A stretch of 40,618 bases of DNA from Candidatus Woesearchaeota archaeon (GTDB taxonomy: Archaea > Nanobdellota > Nanobdellia > Woesearchaeales > UBA10107), in NCBI GenBank assembly GCA_016935155.1, contig JAFGRQ010000013.1, forward strand, positions 1 through 40,618. The letters run 5' to 3'. Shown piece after piece: positions 9,181 to 35,263 of the stretch. A program made the position numbers and the translations under genes. The notes below the pieces were generated by a model. It was not told the DNA's origin. It saw nothing but the letters and a program-made list of their open reading frames with translations, and did no database searches. The stretch's first letter is position 1, and each line of letters opens with the position of its first letter.

Positions 9181-10328
9181 TTTATCTTGATAATGCAGCA
9201 ACAACTAAAGTAGATTCTAAAGTAGTTAAGAAAATGCTTCCTTATTTTGAGAAAGAGTTCGGAAATTCTTCCTCAATTCATGAAAGAGGTCTTAAAGCAA
9301 AAGAAGCTCTTGAAAATTCGAGAAGAATTATTGCAAATTCTATAAATGCAAATCCAAAAGAGATTTATTTCACTTCTGGAGGAACTGAATCAAATAATTT
9401 AGCGATAAAAGGGATTGCTTTTGCAAGCAGAGATGCAAATAAAGAAAACAATCACATAATTACAACAAAAATAGAGCACAAATGCGTAATGGATGCTTGC
9501 AAATGGCTTGAAACACAAGGATTCAGAGTCACTTATTTGAACGTAAATCAAGAAGGATTTATTGATTTAAAACAACTAGAGGGCTCAATAACAAAGAACA
9601 CAATTCTTGTTTCAGTTATTCACGGGAACAATGAAATAGGAACAATACAAGACATTGAAGCAATTGGAAAAATATGCAAGAAACATGGTGTTTTATTCCA
9701 TTCGGATGCGTGTCAAAGCTTTACAAAAACAGAAATTAATGTTGTAAATCAAGGTGTTGATTTATTGACAATTAATGCTCACAAAATACACGGACCAAAA
9801 GGAATTGGAGCTTTGTATATTAAAGAAGGAATAAAAATAACCCCCTTGAATCATGGCGGTGGCCAAGAAAGAAATATTCGTTCTGGAACAGAGAATGTTC
9901 CAGGAATTGTTGGATTTGCTGAAGCTGTAAAAATTGCAGACAAGAAAAACATTCCAAAAATGGAAAAACTAAGAGATGAGTTGATTGACGAATTGTTAAA
10001 AATAAAAGGAACAAAGCTAAATGGCCCAAGAAATAACAGATTGTGCAATAATGTTAATATATCGTTCAAAGGAATTGAGGGAGAAGCAATTGGAGGAGAT
10101 TTGAATGACAATGGAATTGCATCTTCAACTGGTTCTGCTTGTGCTGAAAGAAATTTAGATGTAAGTTATGTTTTGACAGCAATTGGATGTTCTCACGAAG
10201 AAGGAAATGGTAGCTTAAGATTAAGTTTAAGCAAATACACAACAGAAAAAGAAATTCAAACTATTTTGAAGGTCATGCCAAAAGTTGTACAGAGATTAAG
10301 AAGCATATCTCCGTACGGGAAGGTGTAA
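9177..10328 (+). CDS. iscS: cysteine desulfurase (NifS/IscS class V aminotransferase)
   Basis: MIYLDNAATT, SGGTESNN, the PLP-lysine context NAHKIHGPKGIGALY, and the active-site loop SSTGSACAE. ATGA overlap with the arsR stop; the track start 9162 is 15 nt upstream. Confidence 0.9.
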   Translation: MIYLDNAATTKVDSKVVKKMLPYFEKEFGNSSSIHERGLKAKEALENSRRIIANSINANPKEIYFTSGGTESNNLAIKGIAFASRDANKENNHIITTKIEHKCVMDACKWLETQGFRVTYLNVNQEGFIDLKQLEGSITKNTILVSVIHGNNEIGTIQDIEAIGKICKKHGVLFHSDACQSFTKTEINVVNQGVDLLTINAHKIHGPKGIGALYIKEGIKITPLNHGGGQERNIRSGTENVPGIVGFAEAVKIADKKNIPKMEKLRDELIDELLKIKGTKLNGPRNNRLCNNVNISFKGIEGEAIGGDLNDNGIASSTGSACAERNLDVSYVLTAIGCSHEEGNGSLRLSLSKYTTEKEIQTILKVMPKVVQRLRSISPYGKV

Positions 10329-21121: not shown

Positions 21122-21700
21122 ATGACAGATATAAAAGAATTGATAAAAATTAAGAAGGCCTTGGACAGAAAAAGACCCGGATTCAAAAGAGACGGCTACG
21201 GAAAAAGAATGAGGATAACTGCTGAGTGGAGGAAACCGCGCGGACTTCACAACAAAATGAAGAACAAAAAAGCCGGCCACAGAAGAATGCCTATGCCTGG
21301 CTTCAGAACTAACAGACTAGTGAGAGGACTTCATATGACTGGACTGATGCCTGTAAAGGTAAGCTCACTCGTTGATATCGCTATGATGGATAAAGGAACG
21401 CAAGGGGCAATAATTGCAAATGGTGTTGGAAACAGAAAAAGAGTCATATTGATAGAAGCACTGAAGAAAGCGGGAATTCATATTTTGAATCTCAAGGAAA
21501 ATCATTCTCAAAAAATAAAAGAGGCCTTAGAAATCAGGAAAAAGGCCAGAGAAAACAAACTTCTTGAAAAAAAAGAGAAAAGCAAAAAAGCAGAGAAAAA
21601 AGGAGAGAAGAAAGAAATTAAAGAAGAATTGACTCCAGAGCAGAAAGCAGAAGAAGAAAAGAAAGAAAAAGACAAAATACTGACGAAGGCTGAAAAATGA
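21122..21700 (+). CDS. rpl32e: 50S ribosomal protein L32e with ~60-aa K/E-rich tail
   Basis: RPGFKRDGYGKRMRITAEWRKPRGLHNKMK. Confidence 0.9.
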   Translation: MTDIKELIKIKKALDRKRPGFKRDGYGKRMRITAEWRKPRGLHNKMKNKKAGHRRMPMPGFRTNRLVRGLHMTGLMPVKVSSLVDIAMMDKGTQGAIIANGVGNRKRVILIEALKKAGIHILNLKENHSQKIKEALEIRKKARENKLLEKKEKSKKAEKKGEKKEIKEELTPEQKAEEEKKEKDKILTKAEK

Positions 21701-30550: not shown

Positions 30551-31585
30551 ATGGGAACCAATCTTAAAGATGTAGTAAAAGGAAAGGAACTTGAATTTTC
30601 TGAGCTTGAAGGAAAGAAACTTGTTGTTGACTCCATGAATGTTATTTATCAGTTTTTGAGCTCCATTAGGCAGCAGGATGGCTCTCTTCTTACTGATTCG
30701 AAAGGAAGACCCACATCACATCTGGTTGGTTTATTCAGCAGAATGATTAAACTCAAAAAAATTGGCGTACTTCTTGCTTTTGTTTTTGATGGAAAAAAAC
30801 CGGAGCTGAAAAAAAAAGAAGTTGAAAGAAGAGTTGAATTAAAAAAACAAGCTCAAGCAGAATATGAAATTGCGAAAGAAAGGGAAGATGTTGCTGCGAT
30901 GAGAAAATACGCTGCAAGAACGTCTCTGCTCACAAAAGAGATGATTGAAGAAAGCAAGGAACTTCTTGATGCACTTGGATTTCCAATAATCCAGGCACCG
31001 AGCGAAGGAGAGGCGCAGGCCGCATTCATGGTTAAACAAGGAGAATTTTATGCTGAAGTAAGCCAAGACTATGATTGCTTAATGTTTGGTGTTCCCAGAT
31101 TAATTCAAAATCTAACCTTGAGCGAGCGAAAGAAAAGCAAGAACAAACTAAGCTATGAAAAAATAAAACCGATTCTTGTTGATTTGAAGGAAACTCTTTC
31201 CGCAAACAAATTGACACAAGACCAATTGATTGTATTGGGAATTTTGGTTGGAACGGATTTCAATATTGGCGGAATAAAAGGAATTGGACCTCAAAAAGGA
31301 CTAAAACTTGTTGAAAAATACGGAAATGACTTTGATTCATTGTTTAAGGAAGCAAAATGGGAGGAAAATTTTGATTTTTCATGGAAAGATGTTTTTGATA
31401 CGATAAAAAACATGCCCGTGACAAAAGATTACGAGCTAAAATGGAAGAAAATTGACAGAGACAGAGTAATTAAAATTCTTGTTGAAGAACACGAATTCAG
31501 CAGGGAAAGAGTCGAAAGAAACATTGATGAGATGGAAGACTTGGAAACAAAGGGAAAACAAAAAGGATTGGGTGATTTCTTTTGA
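30551..31585 (+). CDS. fen: flap endonuclease FEN-1
   Basis: MGTNLKDVV..GKKLVVDSMNVIYQFLSSIRQQDGSLLTDSKGRPTSHLVGLF..FVFDGKKPELK..PSEGEAQAA..LVGTDFN. The track start 30506 (TTG) lies upstream of the TATA. Confidence 0.92.
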   Translation: MGTNLKDVVKGKELEFSELEGKKLVVDSMNVIYQFLSSIRQQDGSLLTDSKGRPTSHLVGLFSRMIKLKKIGVLLAFVFDGKKPELKKKEVERRVELKKQAQAEYEIAKEREDVAAMRKYAARTSLLTKEMIEESKELLDALGFPIIQAPSEGEAQAAFMVKQGEFYAEVSQDYDCLMFGVPRLIQNLTLSERKKSKNKLSYEKIKPILVDLKETLSANKLTQDQLIVLGILVGTDFNIGGIKGIGPQKGLKLVEKYGNDFDSLFKEAKWEENFDFSWKDVFDTIKNMPVTKDYELKWKKIDRDRVIKILVEEHEFSRERVERNIDEMEDLETKGKQKGLGDFF

Positions 31586-32409
31586 AATTAAAGGAGATTT
31601 TGAGGGGAAAGCTTACTAGCAGCGAAATTAAGCACGTTCCAAGTTCATTTGAAATAGTTGGAGATATCGCGATTTTTGCAGATTTCCCGAGAGAACTGAG
31701 GAGAAAGGAGAAAATCGTTGCAAAATCTCTCATGAATGTTCACAAAAACATCAAAGTTGTTTGTAAAAAGAGCAGAAAGTATTCTGGAAAATACAGAACC
31801 GCCAAACTATCTATACTTGCCGGAGAGAAAAGAAAAGACACCATGCACAGTGAAAACGGATGTAAATTTCTCCTAGATGCAGAAAAAGTTTATTTCTCAG
31901 CAAGATCTGGAACAGAAAGAGCAAGGATTTCAAACCTTATTAAACCAAATGAAAATGTTCTGGTCATGTTCTCTGGGTGCGGTCCATTTACAGTTCAAGC
32001 TGCAAAAAAAGCCAAAAAAGTTGTCTCGGTCGAAGCAAATCCTGTTGGCCATAAATACGAGATGATTAACATTGAATTAAATAAAATAAAAAATGCATCT
32101 GCTCTTAAAGGAGATGTTAAAAGAATAATTCCGAGATTAAAAGCTAAAAAAATATTTTTTGACAGAATAATTATGCCCCTTCCGAAAGATGCGACATCGT
32201 TCCTAAAAGAAGCTCTCTCTGTTTCTAAAAAAGGAACAAAAATACATCTTTACACTTTTGCAAACAAGGATGAAATCGAGGCGAGAAAAGCAATAATAAC
32301 GGAGATGTGCAAAAAATACAAAAAAAACTGCAGAATTCTTGATGTGATTAAAGCTGGAGAATATGCGCCTTATGTTCACAGGCTGTGTGTTGATTTTATC
32401 ATAATTTAA
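31582..32409 (+). CDS. trm5: Trm5/Taw2-family (Met-10+) tRNA methyltransferase
   Basis: FEIVGDIAIF, the SAM-binding motif VLVMFSGCGPFTVQAA, and DRIIMPLP. The TTG start overlaps the fen stop, and there is no in-frame ATG before the conserved core. Confidence 0.75.
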   Translation: MKLKEILRGKLTSSEIKHVPSSFEIVGDIAIFADFPRELRRKEKIVAKSLMNVHKNIKVVCKKSRKYSGKYRTAKLSILAGEKRKDTMHSENGCKFLLDAEKVYFSARSGTERARISNLIKPNENVLVMFSGCGPFTVQAAKKAKKVVSVEANPVGHKYEMINIELNKIKNASALKGDVKRIIPRLKAKKIFFDRIIMPLPKDATSFLKEALSVSKKGTKIHLYTFANKDEIEARKAIITEMCKKYKKNCRILDVIKAGEYAPYVHRLCVDFIII

Positions 32410-32449
32410 TTCTTAAAGGTTGTGCACGCTCAGCAGTTACTACCGTTCT

Positions 32450-33541
32450 TCATCGCCTTACGGCTAAGTGGGTGTTCACTTCGTTCATTGCGTTTTGCAC
32501 CAAGCAGGACAAAATATCCTGCTTTTCTGAAGCATATCTAAATGAGAACAGCTTATAAAACTTTTGAATGTCTTCTTTCCCTTTTATGTAAAACCTCCCG
32601 TTAAAATTCCTCTTTTCTTGCTTGCGGAGCTGGATATGCGATGTTTTAATTCCGAAATGGAACAGCATCGCCCTTATTTGATTTAGAAAAATAAGGAGAT
32701 TTTTTATGTGTTTTTTTCTTTTTGAATAAACAAACTGAATTCTCCATTTATTTTTACTTGGAGCAGAACCTTCATTTCCAATAACTGTGCTTAAAAATAC
32801 TGACTTTATGTTATTGTTTCCGTTTAAAATCCAAGTTGGAATTTCATATGTTTGATTTATTTTTCTTCCAAACGGTGCGCCCAATTTAACAAGAAGATTT
32901 GAAAAATCAGGATTACACACATAAACACTGCAAGAAGACTGCTTTGATTTGTATTTTGCTAAAGAAAGCGATAAATGCTGTTTTGGAAAGACTTTGCTGA
33001 AATCTGCCATGAACTTTCTTGCATCTGATTCATACCTAAAGCAAAAACCTGCTCTTTTTTTATTTTTTGAAACAAATCCGTCACACATACAAAATCCAAC
33101 TAAGACTGCCAAAAACTTCTTTGTTTCAATTTTCTCAAAATGATTTATCCTGTATTTTGCAATGAAATTATCATTAAATAATGAATTGATGTTCAATTCT
33201 TCGTTTGTTTTTAAGTGATCGAAGTTATTTTTTGTAATTAATTCTTTTTTCTCTTCTATTCTGTTTGTAATGTAATTAGGAACGAGATGTTTTGAATAAA
33301 TGGCTCTGATTTTCTCAAGATTGTTTAGGGAATATAAATATCCGTTTGAAAGTTGTGTTGGCGTTCTGATTATTTTTGATTTTTTGTGCAGCCTTGATAA
33401 AATTGTGCTTATTAAAATGTGTTTATCTAAAGATGTCTGTCTTAATGAGTCTGCTACGTCTTTTACAAAATACACTTTGCTTGGATTCTTCTCTAAAACC
33501 GAGCAGACCTGTCTTGCCAGCGAAGGTTTATTTGCCACCAT
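32450..33541 (-). CDS. LAGLIDADG homing-endonuclease-family protein with N-terminal winged-helix-like domain
   Basis: Two LAGLIDADG-type motifs: LAVLVGFCMCDGFV and VFLSTVIGNEGSAP. N-terminal ~80 aa are wHTH-like. The TATA tttataaa (33563-33570) lies 22 nt upstream of ATG 33541. Confidence 0.75.
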   Translation of the reverse strand: MVANKPSLARQVCSVLEKNPSKVYFVKDVADSLRQTSLDKHILISTILSRLHKKSKIIRTPTQLSNGYLYSLNNLEKIRAIYSKHLVPNYITNRIEEKKELITKNNFDHLKTNEELNINSLFNDNFIAKYRINHFEKIETKKFLAVLVGFCMCDGFVSKNKKRAGFCFRYESDARKFMADFSKVFPKQHLSLSLAKYKSKQSSCSVYVCNPDFSNLLVKLGAPFGRKINQTYEIPTWILNGNNNIKSVFLSTVIGNEGSAPSKNKWRIQFVYSKRKKHIKNLLIFLNQIRAMLFHFGIKTSHIQLRKQEKRNFNGRFYIKGKEDIQKFYKLFSFRYASEKQDILSCLVQNAMNEVNTHLAVRR

Positions 33542-33579
33542 GATTAATTTTAAGAAGATTGATTTATAAATCTCACGCG

Positions 33580-33605
33580 TAGTTGTCCTGTGCTGTCGGG
33601 AGAAT
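33580..33605 (-). promoter_or_regulatory. copy B of the conserved 26-nt intergenic motif
   Basis: tagttgtcctgtgctgtcgggagaat lies ~10 nt upstream of the LAGLIDADG-gene TATA, inside the right inverted-repeat arm. Confidence 0.5.
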
Positions 33606-33627
33606 ACTACAACTGCTGAGCGGGCAA

Positions 33628-34104
33628 TTACTTTTTCTTTGAATATTCAATACAGTCATTCAAGAAGGATGTTGCTTGTTTGATTCCATCAACAAATGCT
33701 GGCTTTGACTTAAATCCGAAATAATCTAAAATCAACTTTCTCTCTTCTCCATTTATTTCTGAAAAAGCATTAATCTCAATTGATCCGTCCGTTGCCAATA
33801 TCTTGTGGTCTCCATCTTCTCTTGTTATCATGCCAAATACTTCAATTTTGACCTTGTCTCCTGTTTTATATTTTTTTGAAGAAAAAACTAGAACATCTAC
33901 ATCGTCATCTTCATCTTCATCTTTATTTTTTATGTTTTCAAAATAACCATAATTAACTGGCATAATTCCATCATTTATTGGAATTCGGTCTTTAATTGGA
34001 CCAAGATCAATAAATCCACTTTTATCAGTAGACATATGAATTCTTCTGTCACAACCTTTCGGAATTTCAATTACTGCAATAAATTTCATTTTATCCTTAA
34101 CCAA
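33628..34104 (-). CDS. ppa: family I inorganic pyrophosphatase
   Basis: IEIPKG..PVNYGYFENI..DVDVLVF..DGDHKILA; acidic insertion DEDEDDD. Confidence 0.85.
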   Translation of the reverse strand: MVKDKMKFIAVIEIPKGCDRRIHMSTDKSGFIDLGPIKDRIPINDGIMPVNYGYFENIKNKDEDEDDDVDVLVFSSKKYKTGDKVKIEVFGMITREDGDHKILATDGSIEINAFSEINGEERKLILDYFGFKSKPAFVDGIKQATSFLNDCIEYSKKK

Positions 34105-35263
34105 ACATTCCCATAAAATCCTTTCCTTCCTGCTTTTCAGAAGAAAGAACTTTCTTTACCGCGCTGTCAAAATCTTTTTTAGAAATGGTATTTCTGTTTG
34201 CTCTGATTGCAAAGTATCCTGCTTCTGTACAGACCGCCTTTATCTCTGCTCCAGACATTCCATCCATTTTCTTGACCAGAGAATCAACATCAACCTTGTT
34301 TAACTTCATTCTTGATGTATGTATTTTGAATATTTGTTTTATCCCTTCTGCATTCGGAATTGGAACATGAATTAGCCTATCCAGTCTTCCGGGTCTTAAT
34401 ATTGCTGAATCTAGGATGTCCTTTCTGTTTGTACATCCAACAACCTTGACATTATCCAGTGGCTTGAATCCGTCCAATTCAGCAAGAAACTGCATGAATG
34501 TTCTTTGGACTTCCCTTTCTCCTGATGTTCCGAGCTCTATTCTTTTTGCAGCAAGTGCATCTATCTCGTCAATAAATATTATGCTTGGAGCTCTTGCCTT
34601 TGCCAGCTGAAAGATTTCCTTGATTAATTTTGCTCCTTCTCCTATAAACTTTTGAACCAATTCGGAACCGACAACTTCGATGAATGTCGAGTTTGTTGAA
34701 GAAGCAACTGCCTTTGCCAGCAGTGTTTTTCCTGTTCCGGGCGGACCATAAAGCAAGATTCCTTTGGGCGGCTGTATTCCGATTTTCTTGAACAGCTCTG
34801 GTTTTTTTAACGGCAGCTCTATTACTTCCTGAATTTCGAGCGCCTGTTTGCCGAGTCCTCCAACGTCATTCCAGTTAATGGTTGGTTTCTCAATAATCAC
34901 AAATTTTTCAACGTTGAAAACAGACGATGAGTTTATTTTTTTTACAATCGTGAGATTTTTCTGCTCTACCAAGACGGTATCTCCAGGGGATAATGCTTCT
35001 ATGTTTGCGGCACAGCTGACGCAGAATTCATTTCCATTATTAAGCCTGATTATGTAGTTATCACCCAGCGATTCTTTTACTTCCGAAACCATGAAGGGGG
35101 GGTTCTGGAATTTCTTTAGCTCCTGTTTCATGTGCTCCAGTGTTTGCTTCAGAATTTTATTTTCTTCTTCCAACTGAGAAGTTTCTGTTGAATAGCCGTA
35201 CATTATTTTTTCAATTACTTCATCCTTTTCGTTTTCGCTTACTTCGCCGTTCTTCTTTGCCAT
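34097..35263 (-). CDS. pan: proteasome-activating nucleotidase (PAN, AAA+ Rpt-like)
   Basis: N-terminal coiled coil, OB segment, Walker A GPPGTGKTLLAKAVA, Walker B IIFIDEIDA. Confidence 0.9.
   Translation of the reverse strand: MAKKNGEVSENEKDEVIEKIMYGYSTETSQLEEENKILKQTLEHMKQELKKFQNPPFMVSEVKESLGDNYIIRLNNGNEFCVSCAANIEALSPGDTVLVEQKNLTIVKKINSSSVFNVEKFVIIEKPTINWNDVGGLGKQALEIQEVIELPLKKPELFKKIGIQPPKGILLYGPPGTGKTLLAKAVASSTNSTFIEVVGSELVQKFIGEGAKLIKEIFQLAKARAPSIIFIDEIDALAAKRIELGTSGEREVQRTFMQFLAELDGFKPLDNVKVVGCTNRKDILDSAILRPGRLDRLIHVPIPNAEGIKQIFKIHTSRMKLNKVDVDSLVKKMDGMSGAEIKAVCTEAGYFAIRANRNTISKKDFDSAVKKVLSSEKQEGKDFMGMFG

What the first reader, a model, noticed from the sequence alone, without database searches (positions are those of the whole stretch)
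32427..33622. wHTH-LAGLIDADG ORF in a 1.2-kb cassette bounded by a perfect 12-bp inverted repeat, wedged between convergent trm5 and ppa
LAGLIDADG enzymes in archaea normally sit inside BHB introns of rRNA/tRNA genes or inside inteins. Here the ORF is flanked only by protein genes and has its own TATA box.
- The cassette ends, cgctcagcagtt (32427-32438) and aactgctgagcg (33611-33622), are exact reverse complements.
- The helix can extend by 3 further pairs after one mismatch.
- The cassette begins 17 nt after the trm5 stop and ends 5 nt before the ppa stop, as expected for an insertion into a minimal convergent spacer.

In a minus-strand transcript the ends would form a >=12-bp helix enclosing the ORF. 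That geometry is reminiscent of archaeal processing stems and BHB substrates that EndA (encoded 4 kb away) cleaves and that get circularised. Two alternatives are open: a free-standing mobile homing-endonuclease cassette with terminal inverted repeats, or a domesticated DNA-binding LAGLIDADG regulator.
Basis: partly seen in the sequence, partly recalled or inferred. Interest (0 to 1): 0.65.

Follow-up and report, generated by a model that had tools for sequence, protein, structure and literature searches.

The report
Endonuclease gene riding a guide-RNA gene
The inverted repeat is real: one arm is the end of a previously unnoticed small guide-RNA gene and the other a stray copy of that end. 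The enclosed gene is a rare, probably selfish DNA-cutting enzyme gene that always sits directly in front of this RNA gene in a group of tiny archaea.

Summary
The 12-bp inverted repeat (16 bp with one mismatch) is confirmed and is not chance.

**The arms.** They are neither transposon ends nor an RNA processing stem.
Its D' guide matches the 23S rRNA A loop perfectly over 11 nt, predicting Um2552.
- Arm 33611-33626 is an orphan copy of the same sRNA end plus terminator flank. It lies where, and in the orientation in which, all five ORF-less congeners carry this sRNA (trm5 -> sRNA -> <- PAN).

**The ORF.** It is a wHTH plus monomeric double-LAGLIDADG protein.
- It is closest to RtcB-intein endonuclease domains, and both catalytic acids are invariant.
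- It occurs in 11 of 401 genomes of the order, in 11 different families. The sRNA occurs in 51 of 61.
- In all 18 loci examined it lies directly next to this sRNA, upstream and co-oriented in 17, and its frame often ends in a UGA of the sRNA's box motifs.
- Decayed copies exist.

**Best reading (about 0.6).** It is a free-standing homing-endonuclease gene that colonised the 5' flank of the sRNA gene, and the repeat is a rearrangement scar. The main rival is a domesticated DNA-binding protein. Cleavage, target site and transcripts remain untested.

The parts
31582..32409 (+). trm5 (tRNA m1G37 methyltransferase Trm5/Tyw2 type), conserved left neighbour
   Evidence: Pfam PF02475 E=9e-40 and PF25133. 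It is 61-65% identical to the congeners' copies.
32422..32498 (-). 77-nt C/D box sRNA. Elements: K-turn/C box (gcAAUGA) 32485-32489; D' guide GUGAACACCC 32470-32479; degenerate D' box 32465-32468; internal hairpin 32455-32464; C' box GAUGA 32450-32454 (its UGA is the ORF stop codon); D guide 32434-32449; D box CUGA 32430-32433; 3' stem strand 32422-32429.
   Evidence: Covariance model R1 scores 83.6 bits, E=2e-19. The terminal stem covaries with no broken pairs. The D' guide matches the 23S A loop perfectly over 11 nt. The same sRNA is found in 51 of 61 relatives. Weak Rfam hits to archaeal C/D families sR1 and sR49 fall at the same place.
32427..32438 (.). Inverted-repeat arm 1: the last 5 nt of the D guide, the D box and the first 3 nt of the terminal stem of the functional sRNA.
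32450..33541 (-). 363-aa wHTH + double-LAGLIDADG protein. The wHTH covers about aa 1-90 (33272-33541). The nuclease core covers about aa 138-350 (32492-33130). The catalytic residues are D154 and E257.
   Evidence: It is single copy in its own genome.
33561..33592 (-). Promoter of the ORF: upstream motif CACAGGACAAC (33582-33592), a spacer, then TATA tttataaa (33561-33570). The mRNA is leaderless, with the ATG at 33541.
   Evidence: The same motif-TATA-ATG spacing occurs at 10 or more other genes of this genome and in ORF-less congeners.
33601..33636 (+). Orphan remnant of the resident sRNA: its 3' end (arm 2 = 33611-33622, identical through 33626) plus the T-rich terminator flank. It lies in the orientation and position the sRNA has in congeners.
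   Evidence: It aligns with the sRNA 3' end and flank of congener G003. The 16-nt AACTGCTGAGCGGGCA is identical to G003.
33628..34104 (-). ppa (inorganic pyrophosphatase), a single-gene islet between the sRNA terminator remnant and PAN.
   Evidence: Pfam PF00719. It was not found in any of the five congeners. The same slot holds an SDR gene in G003 and an EEP-type gene in G001.
34097..35263 (-). PAN (proteasome-activating AAA ATPase), conserved right neighbour.
   Evidence: 80-84% identical in congeners, where it converges directly on the sRNA.

Best explanation
**Shown**
- The spacer between the convergent genes trm5 and PAN ancestrally holds a C/D box sRNA with its own promoter. Its D' guide targets the A loop of 23S rRNA and predicts 2'-O-methylation of U2552 (E. 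coli numbering).
- In this genome a promoter-ORF unit sits immediately upstream of that sRNA. The ORF's stop codon is the UGA of the sRNA's C' box.
- The ORF-sRNA unit points the opposite way to the sRNA of all five congeners.
- A 16-nt (about 36 nt including the flank) orphan copy of the sRNA's 3' end and terminator remains at the original place. Together with the functional sRNA's 3' end it forms the inverted repeat.
- The ORF is a monomeric double-LAGLIDADG enzyme related to RtcB-intein endonuclease domains. It has lost the splicing domain and gained an N-terminal winged helix. Both catalytic acids are invariant.

**Inferred**
- The ORF is a free-standing homing-endonuclease gene whose niche is the 5' flank of this highly conserved sRNA gene.
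- C/D sRNAs are trimmed out of longer transcripts, so a gene inserted between promoter and sRNA leaves the sRNA functional, much as an intron or intein spares its host gene.
- The enzyme is proposed to cut ORF-less alleles in or beside the sRNA gene and to be copied in during repair.
- Breaks and repair at this site would also produce the partial duplications and flips of the sRNA end, of which this inverted repeat is one.
For: **sRNA identity**
- A conserved element follows the ORF in all 17 homologous loci, and it stands alone after trm5 in all five congeners.
- The terminal stem covaries: pair 7-76 is GC 14 / AU 7 / CG 2, and pair 8-75 is CG 12 / UA 7 / UG 4, with none broken.
- The guide has an 11-nt perfect match to the A loop.
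- Nop5 and fibrillarin are encoded in the genome.
- The sRNA is found in 51 of 61 relatives, mostly in the order trm5 -> sRNA -> <- PAN.
- There is only one copy in the window's own genome.

**Orphan arm**
- It is identical to the congener's sRNA 3' end, and the flank is homologous as well.

**Endonuclease**
- The AlphaFold2 model has pLDDT 93.8.
- Foldseek matches the TliVMA intein, PI-SceI, I-Tsp061I and I-DmoI.
- NCBIfam's RtcB-intein model matches residues 96-347 at E=3e-23.
- BLASTP aligns the ORF with a congener's RtcB intein across both motifs.
- D154-G155 and E257-G258 are invariant in 40 sequences.

**Selfish-element pattern**
- The ORF is in 11 of 401 genomes of the order, in 11 different families, one genome each. 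It is in 0 of 5 congeners.
- It lies directly next to the sRNA in all 18 loci examined and is co-oriented with it in 17 of them.
- There is a decay series: an in-frame stop in L040, only the C-terminal 150 aa in L050, and only the last 35 aa or so in L051 and L052.
- Extra partial sRNA 3' ends occur in 6 of 18 ORF-bearing loci against 2 of 29 ORF-less loci (Fisher p=0.03).
- The orientation of the unit changed at least twice on the ORF tree. The two loci with an inverted repeat (the window and L037) sit in different well-supported clades.
Against: - No cleavage activity, target site or transcript has been observed.
- Pairwise ORF identity tracks trm5 identity (r=0.73), and the ORF diverges about as slowly as trm5. 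This window's ORF is only 36-50% identical to any relative, against 40-50% for trm5. There is therefore no sign of recent horizontal transfer, and long vertical descent with many losses also fits.
- The ORF uses a host-typical promoter motif shared with DNA-repair genes and present in ORF-less congeners. This suggests integration into host regulation.
- The functional sRNA here has the same core sequence as the ORF-less congener's. A target lying wholly inside the sRNA core would make the enzyme cut its own genome, so the proposed target must include flanking sequence.
- Related genomes are not independent samples, so the counts overstate significance.
Confidence: 0.6

Rival explanations
1. 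The ORF is a domesticated, vertically inherited DNA-binding protein, such as a regulator or repair factor derived from an intein endonuclease. It has been lost in most lineages. The inverted repeat is an incidental scar of local rearrangement in a recombination-prone spacer.
For: - ORF divergence tracks trm5 (r=0.73) and is as slow as a housekeeping gene.
- The ORF carries a host promoter motif shared with Hef and a Cas4/Dna2-like nuclease, and the motif is present in ORF-less congeners.
- It has an extra wHTH, as in WhiA-type domesticated LAGLIDADG proteins, and WhiA is among the fold matches.
- sRNA flips also occur without the ORF.
Against: - Both catalytic acids and many basic or polar residues of the nuclease core are invariant. 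WhiA-type proteins have lost them (established knowledge).
- Presence in about 3% of genomes scattered over 11 families would need very many independent losses.
- Decaying copies exist.
- The strict position directly in front of one conserved RNA gene is unexplained by a general regulator role.
Confidence: 0.28
2. The two arms pair in a minus-strand transcript to form a processing stem, possibly a BHB-like EndA substrate. The stem excises or circularises the ORF-containing RNA.
For: - The arms are perfectly complementary over 12 nt.
- ppa lies upstream on the same strand with no obvious T-run, so read-through is conceivable.
- C/D sRNAs are known to be circularised in some archaea (established knowledge).
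Against: - There are no bulges, so this is not a bulge-helix-bulge.
- The ORF's own TATA lies between the 5' arm and the ATG.
- The 3' arm is needed for the sRNA's own K-turn and terminal stem, which covaries.
- Only 2 of 18 ORF-bearing loci have an inverted copy. Four have direct copies and 12 have none.
Confidence: 0.03
3. The 1.2-kb segment is a transposon-like cassette with terminal inverted repeats that inserted between trm5 and ppa.
For: A perfect inverted repeat lies at both ends of a segment that is absent from congeners.
Against: - There is no transposase and no target-site duplication.
- Both the ORF and the 12-mer are single copy in the genome.
- One arm belongs to a conserved host sRNA, and the other is homologous, flank included, to the host's ancestral sRNA end.
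- In other genomes the unit sits at the same locus without inverted repeats.
Confidence: 0.03
4. The inverted repeat is a chance match.
For: The repeat is short (12 bp).
Against: - Shuffles expect 0.14 matches.
- The arms fall exactly in the two intergenic gaps.
- A 15-nt equivalent occurs at the same two positions in L037.
Confidence: 0.02

Closest known systems
Archaeal C/D box sRNAs (2'-O-methylation guides bound by L7Ae, Nop5 and fibrillarin)
   Same: - It has C/D and C'/D' box architecture, about 75 nt in length, and a covarying terminal stem.
- A 10-11-nt guide lies upstream of D' and is complementary to rRNA. The N+5 rule lands on the conserved A-loop U.
- It overlaps or is co-transcribed with the 3' end of an upstream ORF, which is known for other archaeal C/D sRNAs.
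   Different: - The C box is a shortened AAUGA/GAUGA variant here, and the D' box is degenerate.
- No Rfam family reaches threshold.
- No convincing target was found for the second (D) guide.
Free-standing homing endonuclease genes that sit beside their target, such as phage T4 seg/mob genes or I-TevIII-type intronless homing
   Same: - A sporadically present endonuclease gene occupies a fixed intergenic position between conserved genes.
- Empty sites occur in close relatives, and decayed copies exist.
   Different: - Those are GIY-YIG or HNH enzymes in phages. This is a LAGLIDADG enzyme in a cellular archaeal chromosome.
- It is fused to the 5' side of a small RNA gene.
- Cleavage has not been shown.
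Yeast HO endonuclease / VDE (PI-SceI)
   Same: - It is a LAGLIDADG nuclease core of intein ancestry that has become a free-standing gene with an added DNA-binding domain.
- PI-SceI is among the best fold matches.
   Different: - HO keeps remnants of the Hint domain and has C-terminal zinc fingers. This protein has no Hint domain and an N-terminal winged helix.
- HO has a host function (mating-type switching). The function here is unknown.
RtcB-intein LAGLIDADG domains (NCBIfam NF038162)
   Same: - This is the best sequence-profile match (E=3e-23 over residues 96-347).
- Both motifs align with a congener's RtcB intein.
   Different: - There is no splicing domain.
- It is not inserted in RtcB or in any other protein.
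WhiA (bacterial domesticated LAGLIDADG + HTH regulator)
   Same: A double-LAGLIDADG fold combined with a helix-turn-helix domain, encoded by a chromosomal free-standing gene.
   Different: - WhiA lacks the catalytic acids, has its HTH at the C-terminus, and is universally conserved in its clade.
- Here the acids are invariant, the wHTH is N-terminal, and the distribution is sporadic.

Membership tests
C/D box sRNA | C box (RUGAUGA) near the 5' end and D box (CUGA) near the 3' end, able to form a K-turn | tested here: met
   The D box CUGA is at 32430-32433. The C box is the variant gcAAUGA (a 3-nt bulge plus GA). Congeners have the canonical GAUGAUGA...CUGA.
C/D box sRNA | Internal C' and D' boxes | tested here: inconclusive
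   The C' box GAUGA is clear. The D' box is CUUA here but CUGA in several relatives.
C/D box sRNA | Short terminal stem joining the 5' and 3' ends, kept by compensatory change | tested here: met
   RNAalifold finds 5 pairs, 3 of them with double changes. The two variable inner pairs are never broken in 23 sequences.
C/D box sRNA | Guide of 9 nt or more complementary to rRNA or tRNA, with the target nucleotide opposite the fifth position upstream of D or D' | tested here: met
   The D' guide has 11 consecutive Watson-Crick pairs with the 23S A loop of congeners G003 and G005, and position 5 pairs with the U2552 equivalent. The D guide's best match is only 7+3 pairs. The genome's own rRNA is not assembled.
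C/D box sRNA | sRNP proteins encoded in the genome | tested here: met
   Nop5 and fibrillarin are adjacent on contig C41. L7Ae was not searched.
C/D box sRNA | Expressed as a stable small RNA that methylates the target | not testable with these tools
LAGLIDADG homing endonuclease | Two LAGLIDADG helices, each ending in a catalytic Asp or Glu | tested here: met
   The motifs are ..VGFCMCDG (D154) and ..STVIGNEG (E257), invariant in 40 sequences. They end helices 138-152 and 243-257 of the model.
LAGLIDADG homing endonuclease | Alpha-beta-beta-alpha-beta-beta-alpha double-domain fold | tested here: met
   Foldseek gives probability 1.0 for I-DmoI, I-Tsp061I, PI-SceI and the TliVMA intein, with TM (target) up to 0.74.
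LAGLIDADG homing endonuclease | Site-specific double-strand cleavage of an allele lacking the gene | not testable with these tools
   This needs a biochemical assay. The target was not identified.
LAGLIDADG homing endonuclease | Sporadic distribution with empty sites and decayed copies at one homologous locus | tested here: met
   The ORF is in 11 of 401 genomes and 11 families. Empty sites occur in 5 of 5 congeners. Decay is seen in L040, L050, L051 and L052.
LAGLIDADG homing endonuclease | Evidence of horizontal movement (gene tree conflicting with host tree) | tested here: inconclusive
   ORF identity correlates with trm5 (r=0.73) but only weakly with PAN (r=0.26). No pair has a clearly younger ORF except L042/L045, at 92% against 79%.
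Intein | Hint splicing domain embedded in a host protein | tested here: not met
   There is no Intein_splicing hit. The N-terminus folds as a winged helix. The ORF has its own start, stop and promoter.
Archaeal BHB intron / EndA processing stem | Two 3-nt bulges separated by a 4-bp helix | tested here: not met
   The arms form a continuous 12 bp, one mismatch and 3 bp, with no bulges. No exon sequence flanks them.
TIR-bounded transposable element | Transposase, target-site duplication and multiple copies | tested here: not met
   The ORF and the 12-mer are each single copy. The flanks are not direct repeats. The arms are host sRNA sequence.
WhiA-like domesticated LAGLIDADG regulator | Catalytic acids lost, and uniform presence in the clade | tested here: not met
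   The acids are invariant. The ORF is present in about 3% of genomes.

The most novel reading that the evidence does not exclude
This is a third kind of safe harbour for homing endonuclease genes, besides introns and inteins. An intein-derived LAGLIDADG gene homes into the transcription unit of an important C/D box guide RNA. The guide is still released from the endonuclease mRNA's 3' end by ordinary sRNA trimming. Repeated cutting at the sRNA gene drives the flips and partial duplications seen, so that the inverted-repeat-flanked unit may still be invertible.
Probability: 0.4. Interest if true: 0.78.

Novelty: new variant of a known kind. Interest (0 to 1): 0.64.

Why it matters
- Homing endonuclease genes are thought to persist by hiding in self-splicing introns or inteins, or, in phages, beside their targets. 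A cellular, chromosomal LAGLIDADG gene that consistently rides on a small guide-RNA gene would show another way for a selfish gene to avoid harming its host. It would also extend the known targets of such elements from rRNA, tRNA and protein genes to sRNA genes.
- The work uncovers an unannotated C/D box sRNA, widespread in the order (51 of 61 genomes searched), that is predicted to guide the universally conserved A-loop methylation in genome-reduced DPANN archaea.
- If active, the enzyme is a compact nuclease with a long, conserved recognition site and an extra DNA-binding domain.
- For annotation, the result warns that GC-rich ends around an ORF in AT-rich archaeal genomes can be small RNA genes rather than element termini.

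Tried and rejected
- **Rfam at gathering thresholds:** nothing in the window. At a permissive threshold there were only weak C/D hits, sR1 and sR49 at 12-17 bits, which nonetheless pointed to the right spot.
- **ARAGORN:** no tRNA in the window, so a split or intron-containing tRNA was rejected.
- **BHB or processing stem, TIR transposon, chance:** all rejected (see rival explanations).
- **Promoter motif as the ORF's own operator or regulon:** rejected, because ORF-less congeners carry 7-13 copies.
- **Target of the second guide:** no convincing rRNA or tRNA match.
- **Own rRNA genes:** not assembled, so congeners' rRNA was used.
- **FtsJ/RrmJ-type protein methyltransferase:** only a borderline 26.7-bit hit. 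Whether the sRNA is the sole route to Um2552 is undecided.
- **Exact-sequence look-ups of trm5 and the ORF for population variants:** nothing on record.
- **PHROGs:** no match.
- **Earlier notes of this scan:** nothing related by sequence or words.
- **Literature:** no paper linking homing endonucleases with C/D box sRNA genes.
- **Exact order of events** (insertion in inverted orientation, or later inversion between the arms): could not be resolved from the sequences.
Full report
**1. The observation**

The 12-mer at 32427-32438 and its exact reverse complement at 33611-33622 are present. With one mismatch the complementarity extends to 16 nt, 32423-32438 against 33611-33626. The 12-mer has no other perfect copy in the window. 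With up to one mismatch there are 3 matches where dinucleotide shuffles give 0.14.

The gaps of 17 nt after the trm5 stop and 5 nt before the ppa stop are as stated. The ORF (32450-33541, minus strand, 363 aa) has a TATA element about 22 nt upstream of its ATG.

One description needs correcting. ppa (33628-34104) is on the same strand as the ORF, directly upstream of it. Only trm5 is convergent.

**2.

The two ends of the segment are GC-rich islands in a genome of about 30% GC. I collected 17 homologous ORF loci from public genomes.

- A conserved nucleotide element follows each ORF or overlaps its end. The variable C-terminal tails of the proteins are the same DNA read in different frames.
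- The element has the layout of an archaeal C/D box sRNA. It has a K-turn-forming C box, a guide containing GUGAACACC, internal D'/C' boxes often closed by a small hairpin, a second guide ending in GUAACU, a D box and a terminal stem.
- The terminal stem covaries. The two variable pairs are GC 14 / AU 7 / CG 2 and CG 12 / UA 7 / UG 4, and neither is ever broken.
- In the window the sRNA is 32422-32498 on the minus strand (83.6 bits with model R1). Weak Rfam hits to the archaeal C/D families sR1 and sR49 fall on exactly this stretch.
- The genome encodes Nop5 and fibrillarin.
- The D' guide forms 11 consecutive Watson-Crick pairs with the A loop (helix 92) of the 23S rRNA of two congeners. By the N+5 rule the target is the U equivalent to E. 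coli U2552. This assignment rests on my alignment to the known E. coli A-loop sequence.
- The second guide has no convincing target.

**3. Identity of the two arms**

Arm 32427-32438 is the last five nucleotides of the D guide, the D box CUGA and the first three stem nucleotides of this sRNA.

All five same-genus genomes lack the ORF. They have the gene order fen1, trm5, then PAN converging. In each, the spacer of about 120 bp after trm5 holds a canonical version of the same sRNA. It has its own TTTAAAAA promoter and points the same way as trm5.

The window's second arm, read on the plus strand, is identical over 16 nt to the 3' end of congener G003's sRNA. The similarity continues into the T-rich terminator flank, covering window 33601-33636. 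This arm is therefore an orphan remnant of the resident sRNA in its ancestral place and orientation. The functional sRNA, with the ORF in front of it, now points the other way.

The inverted repeat is thus two copies of one sRNA end. It is not a pair of element termini.

ppa was not found in any of the five congeners. It occupies a slot between the sRNA terminator and PAN that holds unrelated single genes in G003 and G001.

**4. The protein**

- A confident AlphaFold2 model (pLDDT 93.8, pTM 0.89) shows an N-terminal winged helix, a helical linker and a monomeric double-LAGLIDADG core.
- Foldseek finds intein and intron homing endonucleases: the TliVMA intein, PI-SceI, I-Tsp061I and I-DmoI, with TM up to 0.74 on the target. 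It also finds WhiA.
- The best profile match is the intein part of intein-containing RtcB (E=3e-23, residues 96-347).
- The weak hits in congeners are RtcB inteins, and both motifs align.
- There is no splicing domain.
- D154-G155 and E257-G258, at the ends of the two LAGLIDADG helices, are invariant in 40 family members of 40-50% identity. Many basic and polar residues of the second half are invariant too.

**5. Distribution and context**

- The family is small: about 100 clusters at 90% identity and about 15 full-length clusters at 50% identity.
- It is single copy in this genome.
- In the order, 11 of 401 sampled genomes have it, in 11 different families with one genome each. The sRNA was found in 51 of 61 genomes.
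- In all 18 loci examined the ORF lies directly next to this sRNA, between fen1-trm5 and PAN. It is upstream of the sRNA and co-oriented with it in 17 of them. In L048 the sRNA lies just downstream of the ORF but points the other way.
- The ORF often ends in a UGA of an sRNA box motif.
- The unit occurs in both orientations relative to trm5. On the ORF tree the orientation changed at least twice.
- Decayed copies exist. L040 has an in-frame stop. L050 keeps only the C-terminal 150 aa. L051 and L052 keep only the last 35 codons or so directly before the sRNA.
- Extra partial copies of the sRNA 3' end occur in 6 of 18 ORF-bearing loci. Four are direct, and two are inverted (the window and L037). 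This compares with 2 of 29 ORF-less loci (Fisher p=0.03, with the caveat that relatives are not independent).
- The window and L037 lie in different well-supported clades. The inverted-repeat architecture is therefore recurrent, or ancient and mostly lost.

**6. Mechanism proposed**

Shown: the anatomy above.

Inferred:
- The ORF is a free-standing homing-endonuclease gene of intein ancestry that occupies the 5' flank of a highly conserved sRNA gene.
- C/D sRNAs are matured by trimming to the protein-protected K-turn core, and many archaeal C/D sRNAs are made from transcripts of upstream genes (established knowledge of the family). The insertion therefore need not destroy the sRNA. Here the ORF-linked sRNA is the only copy in the genome.
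- The stronger conservation of the second nuclease half fits a target with one conserved half in the sRNA and one variable half in the flank.
- Breaks at this locus would explain the duplications and flips.

**7. Evidence pulling the other way**

- ORF identity tracks trm5 identity (r=0.73), and the ORF is no more similar between genomes than trm5 is. There is no sign of recent transfer.
- The ORF's promoter carries the motif CCAC(A/T)GGACAAC at a fixed distance from the TATA element. The same motif precedes Hef, a Cas4/Dna2-like nuclease and three other free-standing LAGLIDADG genes in this genome. It is equally frequent in ORF-less congeners. The ORF therefore looks integrated into host regulation.
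- A domesticated DNA-binding or repair role with frequent loss remains a serious rival (about 0.28).

**8. The RNA-helix idea**

- The arms have no bulge-helix-bulge.
- The ORF's own promoter lies inside the arms.
- One arm is committed to the sRNA's own covarying stem.
- 16 of 18 related loci lack an inverted copy.

**9. Novelty**

I rate it a new variant of a known kind: a free-standing LAGLIDADG gene in a new host context. An unannotated, order-wide A-loop guide sRNA is a by-product.

Noticed in passing
window 33582-33592 (-) and 5660-5690 (-); own genome contigs C2, C18, C20, C21, C33, C34, C52: The motif CCAC(A/T)GGACAAC lies about 10 nt before a TATA box and about 51 nt before an ATG, giving leaderless mRNAs. 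It recurs 10 or more times in this genome and 7-13 times in each of four congeners, with 0 matches for the reversed control pattern. It precedes Hef (helicase + ERCC4), a Cas4/Dna2-like PD-(D/E)XK nuclease, a 150-aa unknown protein and four LAGLIDADG genes. This looks like a DNA-repair/nuclease regulon.
   Followed up: partly
own genome C34:3643-4617 (-), C52:17422-18246 (-), C20:8884-9726 (-) (loci L099, L100, L102): There are three more free-standing LAGLIDADG-type genes (324, 274 and 280 aa), too divergent to match the ORF by sequence, all with the same promoter motif. The C20 gene is followed about 80 nt downstream by two co-oriented tRNA genes, which is another endonuclease gene just upstream of stable-RNA genes.
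   Followed up: partly
L102 (own genome C20, about 9727-9903) and upstream of ORF homologues in L034, L036, L037, L042, L044, L045, L050: A leader of about 190 nt lies between the TATA box and a Shine-Dalgarno-like GGAGGTGA. It has a long-range stem (AAAGAGAAU...AUUCUCUUU) and a second hairpin ending at the SD. It is shared by different LAGLIDADG genes in different genomes. The window's ORF lacks it and is leaderless.
   Followed up: no
window 33628-34104 (ppa); L025 7422-8084; L029 678-1412; L037 4773-5585: The short gap between the sRNA terminator and the PAN stop is a recurrent single-gene insertion slot. It holds ppa here (not found in the five congeners), an SDR-type gene in G003, an EEP-type gene in G001 and an unrelated gene in L037.
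   Followed up: partly
L060, L066, L076, L077 (ORF-less relatives): The sRNA is flipped relative to trm5 in several genomes that have no ORF, so the spacer rearranges even without the endonuclease gene.
   Followed up: no
L085 (G042) about 1749-1764; G057 C26:21315-21541: Partial or tandem duplications of the sRNA also occur in two ORF-less genomes.
   Followed up: no
L051 about 5975-5995 and L052 about 5985-6090: In both loci the ORF remnant starts at the same codon (..KENLHKFY..), right after a trm5-type C-terminal coding end and stop. In L051 the real trm5 ends about 1.2 kb upstream, so the trm5 end seems duplicated there. The retained 100 nt or so contain TATA-like codons (AAR TTT TAT AA) that might serve the sRNA.
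   Followed up: no
L007, L009, L012 (congeners G002, G001, G003): The congeners' RtcB genes carry a LAGLIDADG intein (975-aa RtcB in G003). No intein-type match to the ORF was seen elsewhere in the window's own, 90%-complete genome.
   Followed up: partly
window 21217-21228 (-): A one-mismatch copy of the 12-mer (CACTCAGCAGTT) lies in the ribosomal-protein region. It is probably chance.
   Followed up: no
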